A DNA stretch of 49,150 nucleotides from Methanobacteriota archaeon (GTDB lineage Archaea > Hydrothermarchaeota > Hydrothermarchaeia > Hydrothermarchaeales > BMS3B): positions 1-49,150 of the forward strand of contig QIGD01000002.1 in assembly GCA_003229935.1 (NCBI GenBank), written 5' to 3'. Made by a program: the position numbers and the translations under genes. The notes below the pieces were generated by a model, which made no database searches, was not told the origin of the DNA, and worked only from the letters and a program-made list of their open reading frames with translations. This document shows, one piece after another, positions 1 through 29,482 of this stretch. Numbering within the stretch: position 1 is the first letter of the stretch; each line of letters begins with the position of its first letter.

Positions 1-83
1 CTGCTTATTTTAGACAATAAAGGCTAAATTTAGCTTATTTCCCGTAGTATTTTTGATTACGGGACAGCCTCTTTAGTCGTGGG
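1..83 (+). mobile_element. Copy A of hairpin-nested 105-bp MITE, truncated by window edge
   Basis: nt 1-83 are near-identical to nt 10024-10106 (ctgcttattttagacaataaagg ... ggacagcct CTTTAG tcgtggg). Ends 8 nt from the rps27ae stop. Confidence 0.85.
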
Positions 84-90
84 TGATTGA

Positions 91-246
91 CTATTTCTTT
101 TTCCAGACAGTATAACCACATGTGCCACAGGAAGACCTATCCCCGTGTTCTGCAAGAAAAACTCCATCACCACATCTGGGACAAGTCTGACGTTTTCGCT
201 CCAGCTTGTCTCCTTTAATTTCGTAATGCTTCCATTTCTGACCCAT
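91..246 (-). CDS. rps27ae: Ribosomal protein eS31 (S27ae), 51 aa, below the ORF-track cutoff
   Basis: Own translation: [51 protein letters not shown]. Has a CPRC...CGTC zinc ribbon and sits directly downstream of rps24e, as is usual in archaea. Confidence 0.9.
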
Positions 247-2637: not shown

Positions 2638-2673
2638 CTGACATACTCTCACAAGACCGTGGGCTTTCTGCCC
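2638..2673 (-). repeat. Degenerate solo copy (G) of the IS200/IS605-like end hairpin
   Basis: The reverse complement reads gggcagaaagcccacggtcttgtgagagtatgtcag. Compare gcgggaaagcccacga...tcgtgggagtatgtcag in the other copies. Confidence 0.55.
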
Positions 2674-2695
2674 ATCAATTTGTAAGTGTAGTATA

Positions 2696-4973: not shown

Positions 4974-4980
4974 TTGAAGT

Positions 4981-5400
4981 CAATCATCCACGGCTAAAGC
5001 ATGTGGACTTGTTCCGTGAGGAATAATTGTAACTAGTTTATTAGGAGGCATTAAAACATGCAAAAGTTATTGGTAGAGTTCAAGAACGCATCAGGAAATG
5101 TTCATCAAGCCCCCTGCTCTGTAAGTGGTAGAGTGTTAAACAGAGAGAAAAGTCTCAGTGCGCCTCACATAGTACTGGCTGATAACAGCTCTGATGAAGA
5201 CCAACACTCTGATAAGAGTGAGCAGGACTTGAGAGTTTCTGTCATAAATATGCAAAACCAACTGATACCTGATAGTGCTAAGAACAGTGAGCAGGTTAAA
5301 ATACCTGCTGGTTTGGATTGGATTAATACTCTTTTTCTTTTATACCATTCTAAAAAAGGTGAGATAGGGCAATTCCTCCTATCCTTGAAGGAGGTTGGTA
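4981..5400 (+). repeat. Hairpin-bounded ~0.4-kb repeat, copy 1 (PATE-like), carrying small ORF 5058..5411
   Basis: Aligns end to end with the reverse complement of 22819..23252 (roughly 70% nt identity by eye). Terminal hairpins at 4987-5007 and 5375-5394. Confidence 0.75.
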
Positions 5401-7629: not shown

Positions 7630-8709
7630 TTACACCATCTTGAAGTTTGTACCCTTTCTATATGTTTCAACACTGAAAATCCAGTCATCAATGCTCTTGT
7701 CACTGAATGGGATGTCAGTTATTTGGAAGAATTTTTCCCAGCCGATGCGCTCTATCCACTCACCAACTCTCTCATCTTCTTCAGCATTGGCTTTGTAGAT
7801 ATCCACAATCTTCCTGACAACCTTAACAACATTTTCCCAATGTGGTGGTTCATTTGGCATGAATGGTATTATCAGGCGTGCAAGAAGTGGTCCTTTCCTT
7901 GTATTGGACACCTTACCACCAACCCATATACTCACACCATCATACTCAGGGTTATGTATTGGCATACCTTCACACAGACTATAGCAGATACCACAGTACA
8001 TACACTTCTCTTCATCAATAACAACAGTCTTTAAATTGCCTCTCTTTGGTTTTATTGCATATTTTGGGCATGACTTGATCAAGTTGGGCACAGAGCAGAA
8101 CTTCTCGACTATCTCATCAATCACAGTTGGTACTTTTCTGTGCATACCAATTATGGCTATATCACTGGCATGTGTTGCTCCGCACATGTTAATGCAACCT
8201 GAAACAGCCATCTTTATTCTCTCAGGGAAAGCATTGTTGTCCTTAAACTCATCATAGAACTCTTCATAGAGAGCTTTTGTTATTGAAGGAGAGTCTGTAG
8301 CTGGAGTATGGCAGTGAGTCCAGCCTACACACTGAATTATTGCCTTCAGGCTGTGATCAGTGCCTCCAACTGGGAAACCCATTGCCTCAACGTCTTTTAT
8401 AACACTGTCGACATCTTTGGCTTTGGGTACTATAAAGCTCACATTGTGTCTTGAGGTGAACTTTATGTAGCCTTCGCAATACTTTTCAGCTATATCGCAG
8501 AGTTTGTTTACAGTTTCTGCTGCAACATACTTTGGTATAGCTGCTCTTACAGTATAGGCTTCATCTCCGCTCTCTGCCACATGCTTTATCACACCACCCT
8601 TTATATGCTCGTGGTATTTCCACTTACCATAATTTTTCTTGGACACAGGCGGTAAAAACTCCTTATAATCCGGTGGTCCAAAATCCAGTTCATCAAGACT
8701 TAGTACCAT
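7630..8709 (-). CDS. dsrB: Dissimilatory sulfite reductase beta subunit
   Basis: GPPDYKEFLPPV..KNYGKW.YHE, CVGWTHCHTPATD, SGCINMCGATHASDIAIIG, EEKCMYCGICYSLC and ERVGEWIERIGWEKFF blocks are typical of DsrB. Confidence 0.85.
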   Translation of the reverse strand: MVLSLDELDFGPPDYKEFLPPVSKKNYGKWKYHEHIKGGVIKHVAESGDEAYTVRAAIPKYVAAETVNKLCDIAEKYCEGYIKFTSRHNVSFIVPKAKDVDSVIKDVEAMGFPVGGTDHSLKAIIQCVGWTHCHTPATDSPSITKALYEEFYDEFKDNNAFPERIKMAVSGCINMCGATHASDIAIIGMHRKVPTVIDEIVEKFCSVPNLIKSCPKYAIKPKRGNLKTVVIDEEKCMYCGICYSLCEGMPIHNPEYDGVSIWVGGKVSNTRKGPLLARLIIPFMPNEPPHWENVVKVVRKIVDIYKANAEEDERVGEWIERIGWEKFFQITDIPFSDKSIDDWIFSVETYRKGTNFKMV

Positions 8710-8710
8710 T

Positions 8711-9862
8711 TTACTCTACCTCCCCTGGCCAATAGAACCAGAAGGGATTTGCCCTTGGTCTTGTTATCATCTGGGGTACAGGGTCTATTCCCAGTTCTTT
8801 ACCTACTTCAAATAAGAATTTACCAAAACCAATTCTGTATATAGCTTCGCCAACTCTTTCCTTTGGATTCCCTATTTCATCCCACCAATCCTGGATGCCT
8901 ACTATTATTTCAATCAGTCTGGTGTATGGTGCTTCAACCTTTATGAATGGTATGAGTGTCCAGCCCAGAAAAGCGCCTATTCTACCTCTTGCTCTGGCGC
9001 CTATGAGGATTGTTGCTCCCTTATCATCACCGGGTCTGAGTGCTTTGGAAAACTCATTAATGCAGTACATGCATCTTGTACAATTTCCCATATCTATATC
9101 AAGTTTCTCATTCTCGTAGCTCATACAGCTTGTAGGACACTTGTTGACTACCTTCAGAATCTTCTCTTCTGGATACTCCTTCAGAATATTCTGGTCTATC
9201 TTGATAGCATCTCTGAAGTTGCCGATTATAGCAAAGTCACTCCTTGCAGTTGCAGCCACGCAATCATTTGGACACCCTGGGATCTTGATTTTCCATTTAT
9301 ATGGAAATCTTGGACGATGAATATCTTCTATAAAGCGCATTGTTAAGGCTTGGTAGAGATCAAGAGTATCGATATTGCTGTATTCACAAATAGCAGGACC
9401 TCCACAGGCTGCAAGCGTTCTCACATCACCGCCACTTCCACCGAAGTCATAGTGAAGCTTCGCCAGCTCCTCAAAAGCAGGCTCTATATTTTCTGTCTCA
9501 ATACCAACAAGCTGCAGACTTCCAGTAGCACCGTGGAAGTTAATAAGTCCGTTTCCATATTTTGTCCAGACATCTACAACCTTTCTAAGTGATTCTGTTT
9601 TGTAGAACCAGCCTGCAGGCTCGAGCATTCTGAATACATGGGAACTTCCAAGAATTTCTGGCATGTCTGAAAGTCTTCCTATTACCCCTGCATCATAACC
9701 AGGGTAGCCCACCATTCCGCCGTGTTTGAAGTGGGTCTTTTTATCTTCTAAAGCTTTATTGTAAATTTCCACTAAACCAGTGTAGCCAGCTTTTTTCCAT
9801 TCAGTAACATAGCTAGGCCACTTCCCCTTTTCAAGTTCTTCAACTGGCCTTGTCATAAGCAT
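8711..9862 (-). CDS. dsrA: Dissimilatory sulfite reductase alpha subunit
   Basis: KWPSYV, HFKHGGMVGYPGYDAGVIGR, ACGGPAICE, HRPRFPYKWKIKIPGCPNDCVAATARSDFAIIG, CTRCMYCIN and ERVGEAIYRIGF..F..PRANPFWF blocks are typical of DsrA. Confidence 0.85.
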   Translation of the reverse strand: MLMTRPVEELEKGKWPSYVTEWKKAGYTGLVEIYNKALEDKKTHFKHGGMVGYPGYDAGVIGRLSDMPEILGSSHVFRMLEPAGWFYKTESLRKVVDVWTKYGNGLINFHGATGSLQLVGIETENIEPAFEELAKLHYDFGGSGGDVRTLAACGGPAICEYSNIDTLDLYQALTMRFIEDIHRPRFPYKWKIKIPGCPNDCVAATARSDFAIIGNFRDAIKIDQNILKEYPEEKILKVVNKCPTSCMSYENEKLDIDMGNCTRCMYCINEFSKALRPGDDKGATILIGARARGRIGAFLGWTLIPFIKVEAPYTRLIEIIVGIQDWWDEIGNPKERVGEAIYRIGFGKFLFEVGKELGIDPVPQMITRPRANPFWFYWPGEVE

Positions 9863-9950: not shown

Positions 9951-10116
9951 GTTACGATATCGTGAGCGGGAAAGCCCACGAACTTTAGAGGCTGTCCGAC
10001 AATTACTCTCAGTAATAAAAAGACTGCTTATTTTAGACAATAAAGGCTAAATTTAGCTTATTTCCCGTAGTATTTTTGATTACGGGACAGCCTCTTTAGT
10101 CGTGGGAATATGTCAG
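9951..10116 (+). mobile_element. Copy B: left-end-like sequence plus end hairpin, carrying the 105-bp MITE in its loop
   Basis: gttacgatatcgtgagcgggaaag | cccacgaa CTTTAG(9983-9988) | aggctgtcc...ggacagcct (9989-10093) | CTTTAG(10094-10099) tcgtggg aatatgtcag. Confidence 0.85.
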
Positions 10117-16443: not shown

Positions 16444-16684
16444 ATTGATATGTTGTACAATTTCTATACTTAAACTTTCGTCTTTTACAAGGATATGTAA
16501 ACCATTTTGGTTACATAGAAGTGAAAATTCATAAACTTTAGATATACAATGTATTAGAACCTCGCTTACATCAGACTGTATGAAAACAACAAATTTTATG
16601 AATTTCCTATACCATTTCTTGATTACATGGGCAGATTTGGTTCATTTTTATGTGAACATGAGTTTTTACACCATATGACGTAGC

Positions 16685-16721
16685 GTAGAACCACACGACT
16701 TTAGTCGTGGGAGTATGTCAG
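16685..16721 (+). repeat. Copy E: unoccupied end hairpin with a single CTTTAG in the loop
   Basis: gtagaa ccacacga CTTTAG(16699-16704) tcgtggg agtatgtcag. This is the arms of copies B, C and D without the 105-bp insert. Confidence 0.8.
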
Positions 16722-20515: not shown

Positions 20516-21100
20516 TTACGATATCGTGAGCGGGAAAGCCCCCTATCTTTTTTCCCTAGTTGTGGGATGAAAGCGAACCATAGTTAATTGTTAGCGAAAT
20601 ACTAGTATATAAGTGCCACCCACATATCTTAAGTCATTCAGGTATTCCATGAACAGTTGGTCGTTCTATCAGCTTCGACAGATGATAGAATACAAGGCTA
20701 AACTGCTCGGAATACTTATTATTGTCTATATTGATTCACAATATACCAGTTAAGAATGTTCAAGATGTGGACTGATAGGCAGCAAGAATGGCAAAGTGTT
20801 TAAGTGTCCCCATTGTGGTCACGATGCTGACGTAAATGCTACGTTCAATATAGCATTGCGTCAAGGCATAGGTCAATCTGTTGCAGACAGAGATGTAACA
20901 GAAGGGAACATTGATATCCCTAAATAGGTAACTCTATGGACGATGGAGACCTTAGAACCCCACGAACTTTAGAGGCTGTTCCGTAATCAAAAATACTACA
21001 ACAAATAAGCTAAATTTATCCTTTATTGTCTAAAATAAGCAGTCTTTCTATTACTTAGAGTAATTGTCGGACAGCCTCTTTAGTCGTGGGAGTATGTCAG
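20516..21100 (+). mobile_element. Decayed IS200/IS605-type element: left-end-like relic (F, 20516-20575), tnpB 3' remnant, right-end hairpin with MITE (copy C)
   Basis: 20516-20542 equals the left part of copy B (gttacgatatcgtgagcgggaaagccc). The tnpB remnant is followed by tagaaccccacgaa CTTTAG(20967-20972), a 105-bp insert (20973-21077), then CTTTAG(21078-21083) tcgtgggagtatgtcag. Confidence 0.75.
20613..20927 (+). pseudogene. tnpB: TnpB (IS605 OrfB) C-terminal remnant with in-frame TAA
   Basis: [36 protein letters not shown]...[22 protein letters not shown] is the RuvC-III and zinc-finger region of TnpB. The N-terminal roughly 300 codons are absent. Confidence 0.8.
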
Positions 21101-21639: not shown

Positions 21640-22848
21640 CTATCTAGTTTTGTCAATTAAGATATTTGTGAGTTCCCATCCTTTTATTTTATGATATCTG
21701 CCTTTATCAGCATCCTTCTCTGAGAAAGCTTTCATTTCATCTCTGTTATTACCCAAGCCATATACTGCAAAGGGCACTGCATCAGCAGTATGAGTTCTTA
21801 CTTCAATTGGTGTTGGGTGATCAGTTACCACAGCTATTCTGAAATTCTCAAGATTATCAAGAAGTCTTCCTATAATCTCTTTATCTATAGCTTCAATAGC
21901 CTTTATTTTCATCTCAAGGTTACCTTCATGTCCAGCCTCGTCAGGCGATTCAATATGAATATAACAGTAATCTACCTCTTCAATAATTTTTAGAGCATAA
22001 TCTGCCTTATTTCCATAGTTTGTGTCATAGTAACCTGTAGCACCTGGTACAGATATAGCTCTCAATCCTGTATAAATCCCAAGTCCCTTGATTAAATCAA
22101 CTGCTGAGATTACAGCACCCCTGAGGCTGTAGACTTCTTTAAAATCTGGAATTTCGGGTTTTTTTCCCTGTCCCCAGAGCCATATCATATTGGCAGGATT
22201 ATGTCCAGCTGCCACTCTTTTTCTGTTAACTTCAGATTTTTCAAGGATGTTTTTCGAGTCGAGCATGATTTTATTCAGAAGCTCGGCACTCTCTCCATCC
22301 TTTATTAAATTCCTATCAATTCTCTCTCCAGTTATATCATGAGGAGGAACAGCTTTAACATCTGCGCCACAGGAACATATGAAGAGGTTTCTATAACTCA
22401 CTCCAGCATGGAATTTTCCATGTGTAGTGAGTCTGCTGGTGTTTAACAACCCTATTAACTGCTTTCCCTCCTGGCCTGAGATATGTCCAGCTGTAAAATC
22501 CTCAATTCTGCCGTTATGCTCGGTTATAAAGTTACATCTGAAGGCAATTTCTCCTCTGCCAAGAGGAACTCCAGCACTGGCTGCTTCGAGTGGGCCTCTG
22601 CCTGTATAATATCTTTCAGGATTATAACCAAGAAGTGATAGATTTGCAACGCCACTCCCTCTGGGCATGCCATTAGGAATTGTGACAAGTTTTCCACCTT
22701 TACCTTTACTGGCGATAAAATCCATATTTGGCGTGGAAGCAACTTCTAGAGGAGTTTTACCCTCCAGAACTTTCAGAGGATAATCTGCCATACCATCGCC
22801 AACAACCACGACATACTTCATAATAATCTGGGCAAGGAGACCACCCAT
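21640..22848 (-). CDS. apgM: Cofactor-independent phosphoglycerate mutase, archaeal type (probable start 22821, MKYVVVVGDG)
   Basis: KYVVVVGDGMADYP...TPNMD...GSGVANLSLLGY...HIESPDEAGH...VTDHPTP motifs. Confidence 0.9.
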   Translation of the reverse strand: MGGLLAQIIMKYVVVVGDGMADYPLKVLEGKTPLEVASTPNMDFIASKGKGGKLVTIPNGMPRGSGVANLSLLGYNPERYYTGRGPLEAASAGVPLGRGEIAFRCNFITEHNGRIEDFTAGHISGQEGKQLIGLLNTSRLTTHGKFHAGVSYRNLFICSCGADVKAVPPHDITGERIDRNLIKDGESAELLNKIMLDSKNILEKSEVNRKRVAAGHNPANMIWLWGQGKKPEIPDFKEVYSLRGAVISAVDLIKGLGIYTGLRAISVPGATGYYDTNYGNKADYALKIIEEVDYCYIHIESPDEAGHEGNLEMKIKAIEAIDKEIIGRLLDNLENFRIAVVTDHPTPIEVRTHTADAVPFAVYGLGNNRDEMKAFSEKDADKGRYHKIKGWELTNILIDKTR

Positions 22849-23252
22849 TTCAATGGGTGGAGGAATGCCCTACCTCACATATTTTAAAATTTGTATAAGA
22901 ATAATAATTTTTAATCCAATCTAAACCAGTAGGTATTTTAACCTGCTCAGTGTTCCTAACACTACTATCAGGTATTGGTTTTTTATGCATGTTTAACGCA
23001 GGAACTCTCAAGTTCTGCCTACACTTGCCAGAGCGTATGTCCTCTTCGGAGCTGTTATTGGCCAGTACTTTGTAGGGTACACTGAGAGTTTCCTCTCTGT
23101 TTAATGCTCCATTTACAGAGCAGGGGACTTGAGGAGCATCCCCCGATGTGTTCTCGAACTCTACCAATAACTGCATTCTTAAATACCTCCTAATCAACCT
23201 GCTACCCATATCTCTCACAAGACAAGCCACCCATTTTAATGGGTGGTGATTG
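22819..23252 (-). repeat. Hairpin-bounded ~0.4-kb repeat, copy 2, with small ORF 22850..23176
   Basis: Bounded by ccacccatttcaatgggtgg (22841-22860) and ccacccattttaatgggtgg (23227-23246). The interior aligns with 4981..5400 in reverse orientation. Confidence 0.75.
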
Positions 23253-23256
23253 GCAT

Positions 23257-25297: not shown

Positions 25298-25344
25298 GGA
25301 TGATATTTTGCCTATGAGGTATATAAAGATTGAGTTATTGGAAT

Positions 25345-25389
25345 TTCATAATAATCTGGGGCAAGGAGACCACCCATTTGAATGGGTGG
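25345..25389 (+). repeat. Solo copy of the ~44-nt end and hairpin of the 0.4-kb repeat
   Basis: ttcataataatctggggcaaggagaccacccatttgaatgggtgg, compared with 22817-22860 ttcataataatctgggcaaggagaccacccatttcaatgggtgg. Confidence 0.8.
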
Positions 25390-25460
25390 TGATTGACCAA
25401 CCTGTTTTTATGAATCCCATAATATCAATTGGAACCTTCAGGGAGTATTATGTATAAAAA

Positions 25461-29105: not shown

Positions 29106-29193
29106 CTATGGTATATTAAGGGGAATAAGAGTCTGGAGATACTTATTCTCCTGACTCTAATACTTCTACTTTTATGGAAAATATAGCAGAAGA

Positions 29194-29334
29194 CACACGA
29201 CTTTAGAGGCTGTCCGACAATTACTCTCAGTAATATTAAGACTGCTTATTTTAGATAATAAAGGCTAAATTTAGCTTATTTCTCACAGTATTTTTGATTA
29301 CGGGACAGCCTATTTAGTTGTGGGAGTATGTCAG
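29194..29334 (+). mobile_element. Copy D: end hairpin with the 105-bp MITE in its loop
   Basis: cacacga CTTTAG(29201-29206), aggctgtcc...ggacagcct (29207-29311), ATTTAG(29312-29317), ttgtggg agtatgtcag. Confidence 0.85.
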
Positions 29335-29482
29335 TTTCTTTGTCGAGTTTGCTGGCAGCTATTACATCATCTATTCTCAGAATCATTACTACAACTTTGC
29401 TTGTGCTGTCGATGGCCTGGGTTTTGACATTTGTGGGGGTTATAAACCCAACTTCAATCATATTTTCCAGCCTTTTTGTCAT
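29335..29482 (-). pseudogene. 3'-terminal remnant of a second thermosome gene
   Basis: [44 protein letters not shown] compared with residues [44 protein letters not shown] of 45214..46812. About 85% nt identity by eye. Truncated 5' and abutting MITE copy D. Confidence 0.8.

What the first reader, a model, noticed from the sequence alone, without database searches (positions are those of the whole stretch)
9951..10116. 105-bp TIR-MITE nested in the loop of an IS200/IS605-like end hairpin, flanked by CTTTAG duplications (4 occupied copies)
Copies at 1-83 (partial), 9975-10116, 20958-21100 and 29194-29334 all share one architecture:
- arm cccacga(a)
- CTTTAG
- insert aggctgtcc...105 bp...ggacagcct, with perfect 9-bp terminal inverted repeats
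- CTTTAG (ATTTAG in copy D)
- arm tcgtggg
- agtatgtcag

The insert length is exactly 105 bp in all three complete copies. The duplicated hexamer is in direct orientation while the arms are inverted. That is what a cut-and-paste insertion with target-site duplication into a hairpin loop would produce.

This gives a two-tier arrangement, a MITE whose only visible target is another mobile element's terminal hairpin. I cannot match it to a described family from memory. No autonomous partner with these TIRs is in the window.
Basis: seen in the sequence. Interest (0 to 1): 0.62.

Follow-up and report, generated by a model that had tools for sequence, protein, structure and literature searches.

The report
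Hairpin-seeking mini-transposon nested in transposon ends
A 105-base gene-less mobile element, derived from an IS1182-family insertion sequence that lands in DNA hairpin loops, has repeatedly inserted into the end hairpins of another transposon family (IS200/IS605) in this uncultured archaeon. It is a clear case of one transposon nesting in another, but its behaviour fits what is already known of IS1182 elements.

Summary
The window has four occupied copies (1-83 partial, 9975-10116, 20958-21100, 29194-29334) and an empty hairpin at 16691-16721.

- **Counts in the genome.** About 49 hairpins carry the unit and about 200 of the same type are empty.
- **The unit.** It sits in the loop of CCCACGA(A)C-TTTA-GTCGTGGG, in either orientation. 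The loop is duplicated on both sides.
- **The hosts.** They are true IS200/IS605 ends, including 48-50-nt single-hairpin mini-elements. They insert 3' of TTAC or TTAT with no duplication, and the hairpin lies 19 nt from the left cleavage site and 10 nt from the right, as in IS608.
- **The partner.** The sister genome has a 2005-bp IS1182-family element (562-aa transposase) in the same kind of hairpin loop, and its first 33 nt are identical to the unit. Relatives of 1.7 kb and 115-bp MITEs with the same 16-18-nt ends occur in hairpin loops across Methanosarcinales.
- **Size of the duplication.** Those outside copies point to 4 bp (the loop), not 6.

Targeting of palindromes and hairpins by IS1182 members is already published. 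I therefore class this as a new archaeal member of a known kind, with an apparently undescribed habit of nesting in IS200/IS605 hairpins.

The parts
1..91 (+). Copy A, cut by the contig start. It comprises unit positions 36-105 (1-70), CTTTAG (71-76), right arm TCGTGGG (77-83) and the right-end tail TGATTGAC (84-91, a different IS200/IS605 right-end class).
9956..10116 (+). Composite B, a 50-nt single-hairpin IS200/IS605 mini-element with the MITE in its loop. Layout: TTAC|19 nt (9956-9974), left arm (9975-9982), CTTTAG (9983-9988), unit (9989-10093), CTTTAG (10094-10099), right arm (10100-10106), 10-nt tail ending TCAG| (10107-10116).
   Evidence: (the whole 161 nt is absent at the orthologous G001 site, inserted 3' of TTAC with no duplication)
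9989..10093 (+). The 105-bp MITE unit (reference copy). With the flanking G and C it is 107 bp and has 10-bp terminal inverted repeats GAGGCTGTCC.
   Evidence: first 33 nt identical to the left end of the G001 IS1182-family element
16691..16721 (+). Empty host hairpin CCACACGAC-TTTA-GTCGTGGG plus tail AGTATGTCAG. This is the unoccupied state, with a single CTTTAG.
20520..21100 (+). Decayed IS200/IS605 element. It has a left end after TTAC (about 20520-20575) and a TnpB C-terminal remnant with a stop codon (20664-20852). Its right-end hairpin holds copy C: arm 20958-20966, CTTTAG 20967-20972, unit inverted 20973-21077, CTTTAG 21078-21083, arm 21084-21090, tail 21091-21100.
29176..29334 (+). Composite D, a mini-element inserted 3' of TTAT. 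Unit at 29207-29311, CTTTAG at 29201-29206, ATTTAG at 29312-29317, arm TTGTGGG at 29318-29324, tail at 29325-29334. It is absent at the orthologous G001 site.
2638..2681 (-). Degenerate 44-nt mini-element after TTAC, with a damaged hairpin (ccacggtcttgtgag) and tail AGTATGTCAG. Unoccupied.
4979..5010 (-). Empty right-end hairpin of the TGATTGAC class (CCACATGC-TTTA-GCCGTGGA + TGATTGAC).

Best explanation
The 105-bp unit (107 bp if the terminal G and C are counted) is a MITE. It is a deletion derivative of an IS1182-family DDE insertion sequence and is moved in trans by that element's transposase.

Like other IS1182 members, the transposase chooses targets by shape. It joins the element ends into the loop of a DNA hairpin or cruciform, and gap repair then duplicates the loop. 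The duplication here is TTTA, read as CTTTAG because the element ends in G...C.

In this archaeal genus the abundant perfect hairpins are the subterminal hairpins that the IS200/IS605 TnpA transposase recognises. These lie on full or decayed TnpB elements and on 48-50-nt single-hairpin mini-elements, so the MITE ends up nested in another transposon's end.

**Shown**
- Anatomy of the insertions.
- Occupied and empty hairpins.
- Both orientations and many host classes.
- An autonomous partner with identical ends in the same kind of site.
- The family of the transposase.
- The IS200/IS605 nature of the hosts.

**Inferred**
- Mobilisation in trans.
- Structure-dependent targeting, by analogy with IS1272.
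- The exact stagger of the cut.
- Whether an occupied hairpin still works for TnpA or TnpB.
For: **Occupied versus empty sites**
- The empty form is ...ACGAC-TTTA-GTCGT.... The occupied form is ...ACGAC-TTTA-G[AGGCTGTCC...GGACAGCCT]C-TTTA-GTCGT....
- There are 31 complete units in G000, all in this type of hairpin: 19 in one orientation and 12 in the other relative to the host.
- About 49 right-end hairpins are occupied, 122 right-end hairpins are empty and 76 left-end hairpins are empty.

**Independent insertions**
- Mean unit-to-unit distance is 8.0% for the same orientation and 8.05% for opposite orientation.
- It is 8.4% within a host class and 7.9% between host classes.
- The closest unit pairs sit in different host classes.

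**Autonomous partner**
- G001, in the same genus, has a 2005-bp element at L121 157-2161 with a 562-aa ORF.
- It lies in ccaacgaCTAAAG[...]CTAAAGtcgttgg.
- Its first 33 nt are 100% identical to the MITE consensus, and it has 16-nt perfect terminal repeats.

**Transposase family**
- Pfam finds DDE_Tnp_1_6 and DUF772.
- NCBIfam NF033551 (IS1182) scores 442 and 430 bits against a cut-off of 270.

**Relatives elsewhere**
- The end AGGCTGTCCGACAATTAC is found in more than 100 stretches, mostly Methanosarcina and other Methanosarcinales.
- These include 1.65-1.73-kb full elements (L021, L037, L040, L061, L088) and about 115-bp MITEs.
- 40 of 54 end pairs are flanked by an identical 4-nt repeat inside inverted arms. 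The repeats are TTTA/TAAA in 28, CTTG/CAAG in 7 and others in 5.

**Literature**
- IS1272 (IS1182 family) targets inverted-repeat structures.
- Loop-only duplication is one of the pathways proposed for it.
- Siguier et al. are cited there for palindromic targets in the family (PMC5678879).
Against: - No intact IS1182 transposase is in the G000 assembly, only a remnant at C50:13658-14193. Current mobility in this organism is therefore unproven. Repeats are also poorly assembled: the genome is in 227 contigs.
- I found no orthologous locus where only the unit differs between G000 and G001. Every polymorphic site differed in the host element as well.
- The MITE's right end shares only 9-10 nt with the IS. 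The middle 60 nt or so has no identified source.
- The size of the duplication (4 or 6 bp) cannot be settled within this genus. One copy (C13:7880) has CTTTAT on both sides, which fits 6 bp better.
- The base next to AGGCTGTCC varies (G or C, independently at each end) among Methanosarcinales copies. This is unexplained.
- No left-end hairpin out of 76 is occupied in G000 although the loop is the same. Shape-only targeting does not predict that.
Confidence: 0.88

Rival explanations
1. The 105 bp is simply part of one composite IS200/IS605-derived repeat. It entered a hairpin once and has since been copied only by the host's TnpA.
For: - Composites B and D are present or absent as whole units (mini-element plus unit) relative to G001, and sit 3' of TTAC or TTAT.
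- One mini-element class (TTAC|GATATTTTAGGCAGAAAG...) is occupied in 13 of about 16 copies.
- The composite still folds with the host stem closed and the 19-nt and 10-nt spacing intact.
Against: - The unit occurs in at least eight host contexts, in three right-end tail classes, and in left-end hairpins in G001.
- It occurs in both orientations within a single host class.
- Unit similarity does not follow host class or orientation.
- A full-length IS with the same ends occupies the same type of loop.
- Hitch-hiking may add some copies, but it cannot be the main route.
Confidence: 0.07
2. The two orientations arise by inversion, through recombination between the inverted arms or terminal repeats, rather than by independent insertions. 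The CTTTAG repeats would then be part of an extended palindrome rather than a target duplication.
For: - The arms plus terminal repeats form a 22-nt inverted repeat broken only by TT versus AA.
- Copy C117:11330 has CTAAAG on the left and CTTTAG on the right.
- C203 has right-end tails on both sides. Both suggest occasional recombination or assembly chimeras.
Against: - Empty hairpins with a single CTTTAG are common.
- In 29 of 31 copies the two flanks are direct repeats, whichever way the unit faces.
- In other genomes the duplicated loop differs with the host hairpin (CAAG, CTTG, TAAA, GTAA, TGAC), as expected for a target duplication.
- Inversion may explain a few copies but not the family.
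Confidence: 0.04
3. The insert is a functional structured RNA or ssDNA module added to the TnpB guide RNA (omega RNA) or to the TnpA hairpin, not a selfish element.
For: - The unit lies in the right-end hairpin 10 nt from the transposon end. In TnpB elements that position falls in the 3' part of the omega RNA (established knowledge; not tested here).
- The composite folds strongly (-27 kcal/mol, z = -5.5).
Against: - There is no Rfam match.
- Both orientations occur, which would give different RNAs.
- Most occupied hosts are gene-less mini-elements or decayed TnpB copies.
- The ends and the partner are those of a DDE insertion sequence.
Confidence: 0.02

Closest known systems
IS1272 / TnSha1 and other IS1182-family elements (DDE; NCBIfam NF033551) with structure-dependent insertion at stem-loops (PMC5678879)
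   Same: - Same transposase family, established for the partner element.
- Terminal inverted repeats.
- Targets are inverted-repeat or hairpin structures of varying sequence.
- Loop-only duplication is one of the outcomes drawn in that paper's model.
   Different: - IS1272 was reported to replace the stem-loop and leave no duplication. Here the hairpin arms are kept and the loop is duplicated.
- The hosts here are archaea.
- Here the targeted hairpins belong to another transposon rather than lying downstream of genes.
- The element in the window is a 105-bp MITE, not the IS itself.
IS1397 / ISKpn1 (IS3 family) inserting into the loops of REP/PU palindromes in enterobacteria (recalled from memory, not read here)
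   Same: An insertion sequence whose preferred target is the loop of a repeated genomic hairpin. This gives a nested arrangement of one repeat inside another.
   Different: - Different transposase family (IS3, not IS1182).
- Bacterial REP elements, not IS200/IS605 ends.
- The resemblance is an analogy of behaviour only.
IS608 / ISDra2-type IS200/IS605 elements and their gene-less derivatives (PATEs); this is the host, not the insert
   Same: - Insertion 3' of TTAC without duplication.
- A hairpin 19 nt from the left cleavage site and 10 nt from the right one, which ends TCAG here and TCAA in IS608 (PMC3201880).
- Y1 TnpA and TnpB genes are present in the genome.
   Different: - Many hosts here are only 48-50 nt, with one hairpin serving as both ends.
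- A quarter to a third of right-end hairpins carry a foreign 111-bp insertion.

Membership tests
MITE (non-autonomous DDE transposon) | Short, non-coding, terminal inverted repeats | tested here: met
   105 bp with 9-10-bp terminal repeats (G)AGGCTGTCC. There is no room for a gene.
MITE (non-autonomous DDE transposon) | Target-site duplication, with empty sites showing one copy | tested here: met
   CTTTAG/TTTA lies on both sides in 29 of 31 complete copies. Empty hairpins have a single copy.
MITE (non-autonomous DDE transposon) | An autonomous element with the same ends encodes the transposase | tested here: met
   G001 L121 157-2161: the first 33 nt are identical to the MITE, it has 16-nt terminal repeats and a 562-aa ORF. 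No intact copy is in G000 itself.
MITE (non-autonomous DDE transposon) | Presence or absence of the unit alone at orthologous loci | tested here: inconclusive
   Every G000/G001 polymorphic site also differs in the host element. Logan contigs break at the repeat.
IS1182 family | Transposase matches the family model above its cut-off | tested here: met
   NF033551 scores 442 bits (G001) and 430 bits (L040) against a cut-off of 270. Pfam finds DDE_Tnp_1_6 + DUF772.
IS1182 family | Insertion at palindromic or hairpin targets | tested here: met
   All G000 and G001 copies are in hairpin loops. 40 of 54 external end pairs have a 4-nt repeat inside inverted arms. Literature: PMC5678879.
IS1182 family | Transposase actually mobilises the 105-bp unit | not testable with these tools
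   Needs a transposition assay.
IS200/IS605 (the host elements) | Y1 TnpA and/or TnpB genes linked to the ends | tested here: met
   The genome has 13 Y1_Tnp and 35 TnpB zinc-ribbon matches. The hairpin follows the TnpB 3' ends (window 20664-20852 then 20958; C67 8417-8614 then 8707).
IS200/IS605 (the host elements) | Insertion 3' of a tetranucleotide (TTAC) without target duplication | tested here: met
   G001 reads ...aagTTAC|agtatacc.... G000 reads ...aagTTAC|[161 nt]|agtatacc.... Site D lies after TTAT.
IS200/IS605 (the host elements) | Subterminal hairpin 19 nt from the left and 10 nt from the right cleavage site (IS608 geometry) | tested here: met
   Composite B has 19 nt, the hairpin, then 10 nt ending TCAG. 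IS608 values are from PMC3201880.
IS3-family REP-loop inserters (IS1397 type) | IS3-family transposase | tested here: not met
   The partner transposase is IS1182 family.

The most novel reading that the evidence does not exclude
An archaeal IS1182 clade, with ends AGGCTGTCCGACAATTAC conserved while its transposases have diverged to 43% identity, is a specialised hyperparasite of IS200/IS605 elements. On this reading it is not merely drawn to any hairpin. It preferentially lands in the TnpA-recognition hairpin, here in right ends only (49 of 171 right-end hairpins against 0 of 76 left-end hairpins). That could disable or modulate TnpA excision and the TnpB omega RNA, making it an arms race between two transposon families.
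Probability: 0.2. Interest if true: 0.65.

Novelty: new member of a known kind. Interest (0 to 1): 0.45.

Why it matters
- **Named family and partner.** The finding gives a named family and an autonomous partner to a repeat that makes up much of the repeat landscape of this archaeal genus. Related copies are common in Methanosarcina genomes.
- **Insertion outcome.** It documents the 'loop-only duplication' outcome of hairpin-directed IS1182 insertion with dozens of occupied and empty sites. In the paper read here (PMC5678879) that outcome appears only as a proposed pathway.
- **Assays it makes possible.** A DDE transposon is shown using the recognition hairpins of single-strand (Y1/TnpB) transposons as landing pads. 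This sets up simple tests of how a DDE transposase reads DNA shape, and of whether a 111-bp loop insertion is tolerated by TnpA and by the TnpB guide RNA.
- **Annotation.** These composites explain many contig breaks in such metagenome-assembled genomes.

Tried and rejected
- **Rfam, whole window.** Only a HEARO RNA and one tRNA were found, and nothing on the unit.
- **Autonomous partner inside G000.** I searched by terminal-repeat pairs at long spacing and by tblastn. No convincing long-range terminal-repeat pair turned up, and tblastn found only a transposase remnant on C50.
- **Locus-specific polymorphism in public runs.** Only Logan contigs were available. They break at the repeat, and the 'skip 104' joint has 25-nt sides that fit any empty hairpin, so it is uninformative.
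- **Unit-only polymorphism between G000 and G001.** I checked 11 G001 copies and 14 kb of synteny. Every difference also involved the host element.
- **Terminal-base test.** I tested whether the variable base next to the terminal repeat is fixed in the element's own frame in Methanosarcinales MITEs. It is not, and orientation is hard to define because the ends are 28-nt palindromes.
- **TnpB next to external insertion sites.** tblastn with G000 TnpB against the external loci gave no hits. The hosts there are short TTAC-flanked mini-elements.
- **TnpA as the mobiliser of the unit.** Rejected. The unit has a duplication, occurs in both orientations, and its relative encodes a DDE transposase.
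- **Organism name.** Not obtained. There is no mcrA, so it is not a methanogen or ANME.
- **Literature.** No paper contains the end sequence, and none links IS1182 to Methanosarcina elements.

Full report
**Observation**

- In B, C and D the unit is exactly 105 bp: 9989-10093, 20973-21077 and 29207-29311.
- It is bounded by AGGCTGTCC...GGACAGCCT. Copy C's left repeat has one mismatch.
- It is flanked by CTTTAG on both sides, with ATTTAG on the right of D.
- It is enclosed by the inverted arms cccacga(a) and tcgtggg.

Two things were missed. Copy C carries the unit in the opposite orientation, with the CTTTAG flanks unchanged. Copy A ends in TGATTGAC, not AGTATGTCAG. The window also contains the unoccupied state at 16691-16721: ccacacgaCTTTAGtcgtgggagtatgtcag, with a single CTTTAG.

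**Genome-wide picture**

The window is contig C2 of a 1.75-Mb archaeal metagenome-assembled genome in 227 contigs, with 39% G+C. It has no mcrA.
- BLAST finds 31 complete units and about 15 cut by contig ends. Apart from three truncated or rearranged copies (C12:3586, C16:9439, C118:423), all are in this type of hairpin.
- A scan for hairpin plus tail gives about 49 occupied right-end hairpins, 122 empty right-end hairpins and 76 empty left-end hairpins.
- Normalised to the host, 19 units face one way and 12 the other. In 29 of 31 the two flanks are direct repeats whichever way the unit faces.
- Unit-to-unit distance does not depend on orientation (8.0% against 8.05%) or host class (8.4% within, 7.9% between). 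The nearest unit pairs lie in different host classes.

This pattern fits repeated independent insertions from a master copy. It does not fit one composite being copied.

**The hosts are IS200/IS605 ends**

- The genome has 13 Y1 TnpA and 35 TnpB matches.
- The hairpin follows TnpB 3' ends, as at window 20664-20852 then 20958. On C67 it also forms the left end of a full element.
- The sister genome G001 is syntenic with the window. At the orthologous site it reads ...aagTTAC|agtatacc..., where the window has ...aagTTAC|[9956-10116]|agtatacc.... Composite D lies after TTAT and is likewise absent in G001.
- Insertion is therefore 3' of TTAC or TTAT with no duplication.
- In composite B the hairpin foot lies 19 nt from the left junction and 10 nt from the right end, which finishes TCAG. 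IS608 has TTAC, 19 nt, 10 nt and TCAA (PMC3201880).
- Many hosts are only 48-50 nt, with a left-end leader, one hairpin and a right-end tail.

**The partner**

The 18-nt end AGGCTGTCCGACAATTAC hits more than 100 stretches in public genomes. Most are Methanosarcina or other Methanosarcinales.
- Pairs of ends define MITEs of about 115 bp and full elements of 1.65-1.73 kb, such as L040 5312-7028.
- The L040 ORF (512 aa) has DDE_Tnp_1_6 and DUF772 and matches NCBIfam's IS1182 model at 430 bits against a cut-off of 270.
- G001 holds a 2005-bp element with a 562-aa IS1182-family transposase (442 bits). It is inserted as ccaacgaCTAAAG[IS]CTAAAGtcgttgg, in the left-end hairpin of an IS200/IS605 element.
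- Its first 33 nt are identical to the MITE consensus.
- G000 has only a transposase remnant on C50.
- The two transposases are 43% identical, yet they keep the same 16 nt at their ends.

**Size of the duplication**

Within this genus, CTTTAG (6 bp) with a 9-bp terminal repeat and TTTA (4 bp) with a 10-bp terminal repeat GAGGCTGTCC cannot be told apart. The hairpin's closing pair is C-G and the element ends in G...C.

In the external loci, 40 of 54 end pairs have an identical 4-nt repeat one base out from AGGCTGTCC, and only 5 fit 6 bp. In L040 the closing pair is G-C, yet the flanks read CAAG-G[...]C-CAAG. The duplicated tetranucleotide changes with the host hairpin: TTTA/TAAA, CTTG/CAAG, GTAA, TGAC.

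I therefore favour duplication of the 4-nt loop. One G000 copy (C13:7880, CTTTAT on both sides) fits 6 bp better. The base next to the terminal repeat varies (G or C) independently at each end in Methanosarcinales, and I cannot explain that.

**Mechanism**

IS1272, an IS1182-family element, was shown to insert at inverted-repeat structures of differing sequence. The model drawn for it includes attack at the loops with loop-only duplication, and Siguier et al. are cited there for palindromic targets in the family (PMC5678879).

The present element fits that behaviour. A DDE transposase recognises a hairpin or cruciform, joins the ends across the loop, and repair duplicates the loop. Archaea generally lack hairpin terminators (my own knowledge), so IS200/IS605 hairpins are probably the main perfect hairpins available. 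That alone could produce the nesting.

In Methanosarcina the hosts are again short TTAC-flanked repeats with a central hairpin. Some share the GGGGTAGTTCA tail seen here.

**Distribution**

Both tiers, the hairpin and the unit, occur only in G000 and G001 among 41 relatives. G000 has 107 exact empty hairpins and G001 has 12.

**What remains open**

- No locus differs in the unit alone between the two genomes.
- Public contigs break at the repeat.
- 0 of 76 left-end hairpins against 49 of 171 right-end hairpins are occupied in G000, although G001 has three occupied left-end hairpins.
- The composite still folds with the host stem closed (-27 kcal/mol, z = -5.5). Whether TnpA or the TnpB guide RNA tolerates the insert is untested.

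**Verdict**

This is a new archaeal member of the hairpin-targeting IS1182 group. Its nesting in IS200/IS605 hairpins appears undescribed: I found no paper with these ends.

Earlier notes of this scan on IS1182-type hairpin MITEs in other genomes agree with this reading. They were consulted only after the family had been identified here and are not independent evidence.

Noticed in passing
window 22823-23254 (- strand RNA; Rfam HEARO at 23035-23254): A 432-bp HEARO (IscB-type omega RNA) element with no IscB gene lies between apgM and a PLP-enzyme gene. At the orthologous G001 site it is precisely absent (...acttcat|atctatc...), while G001 has more than 25 copies elsewhere. It is therefore a mobile, gene-less HEARO element.
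   Followed up: partly
window 9956-10116, 2638-2681; G000 genome-wide: There are 48-50-nt mini IS200/IS605 elements built from one hairpin that serves as both left and right end (19-nt leader, hairpin, 8-10-nt tail), in dozens of copies. The four bases 5' of the hairpin co-vary with the target (AAAG with TTAC, AAAA with TTAT), as the IS608 guide rule predicts.
   Followed up: partly
G000 genome-wide: The MITE occupies 49 of 171 right-end hairpins but 0 of 76 left-end hairpins, despite the same TTTA loop. In G001, three left-end hairpins are occupied. Unexplained.
   Followed up: partly
L015-L115 (Methanosarcinales loci): The base between the 4-nt duplication and AGGCTGTCC is G or C independently at each end (C/C 15, C/G 14, G/G 11, G/C 9). 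It is not fixed in the element's own frame. Unexplained.
   Followed up: partly
window 29335-29439: 105 nt directly after composite D is also absent from the orthologous G001 site and has a paralogue at G001 C23:42276-42409. It is possibly a second small mobile element inserted at the same spot.
   Followed up: no
G000 C50:13518-14193: The only IS1182 transposase remnant in this genome abuts a MITE-carrying mini IS200/IS605 element and has internal deletions. The two transposon families appear to disrupt each other.
   Followed up: no
L121 1995-2085 (G001 IS, element positions 1838-1927): The 3' part of the G001 IS1182-family element contains a repeat of about 90 bp found at more than 25 places in G000, next to IS200/IS605 right ends (for example window 16568-16620). 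It lengthens the transposase ORF to 562 aa.
   Followed up: no
window 7630-9862 (- strand): Two adjacent sulfite/nitrite-reductase-like genes (NIR_SIR domains, DsrAB-like) occur in an archaeon without mcrA. Composite B sits just upstream of the first of them.
   Followed up: no
window 25330-25397: A 68-nt stretch joins the two end sequences of the HEARO element (aataatctgg...ccacccatttgaatgggtggtgattgac). It looks like a mini derivative of that element.
   Followed up: no
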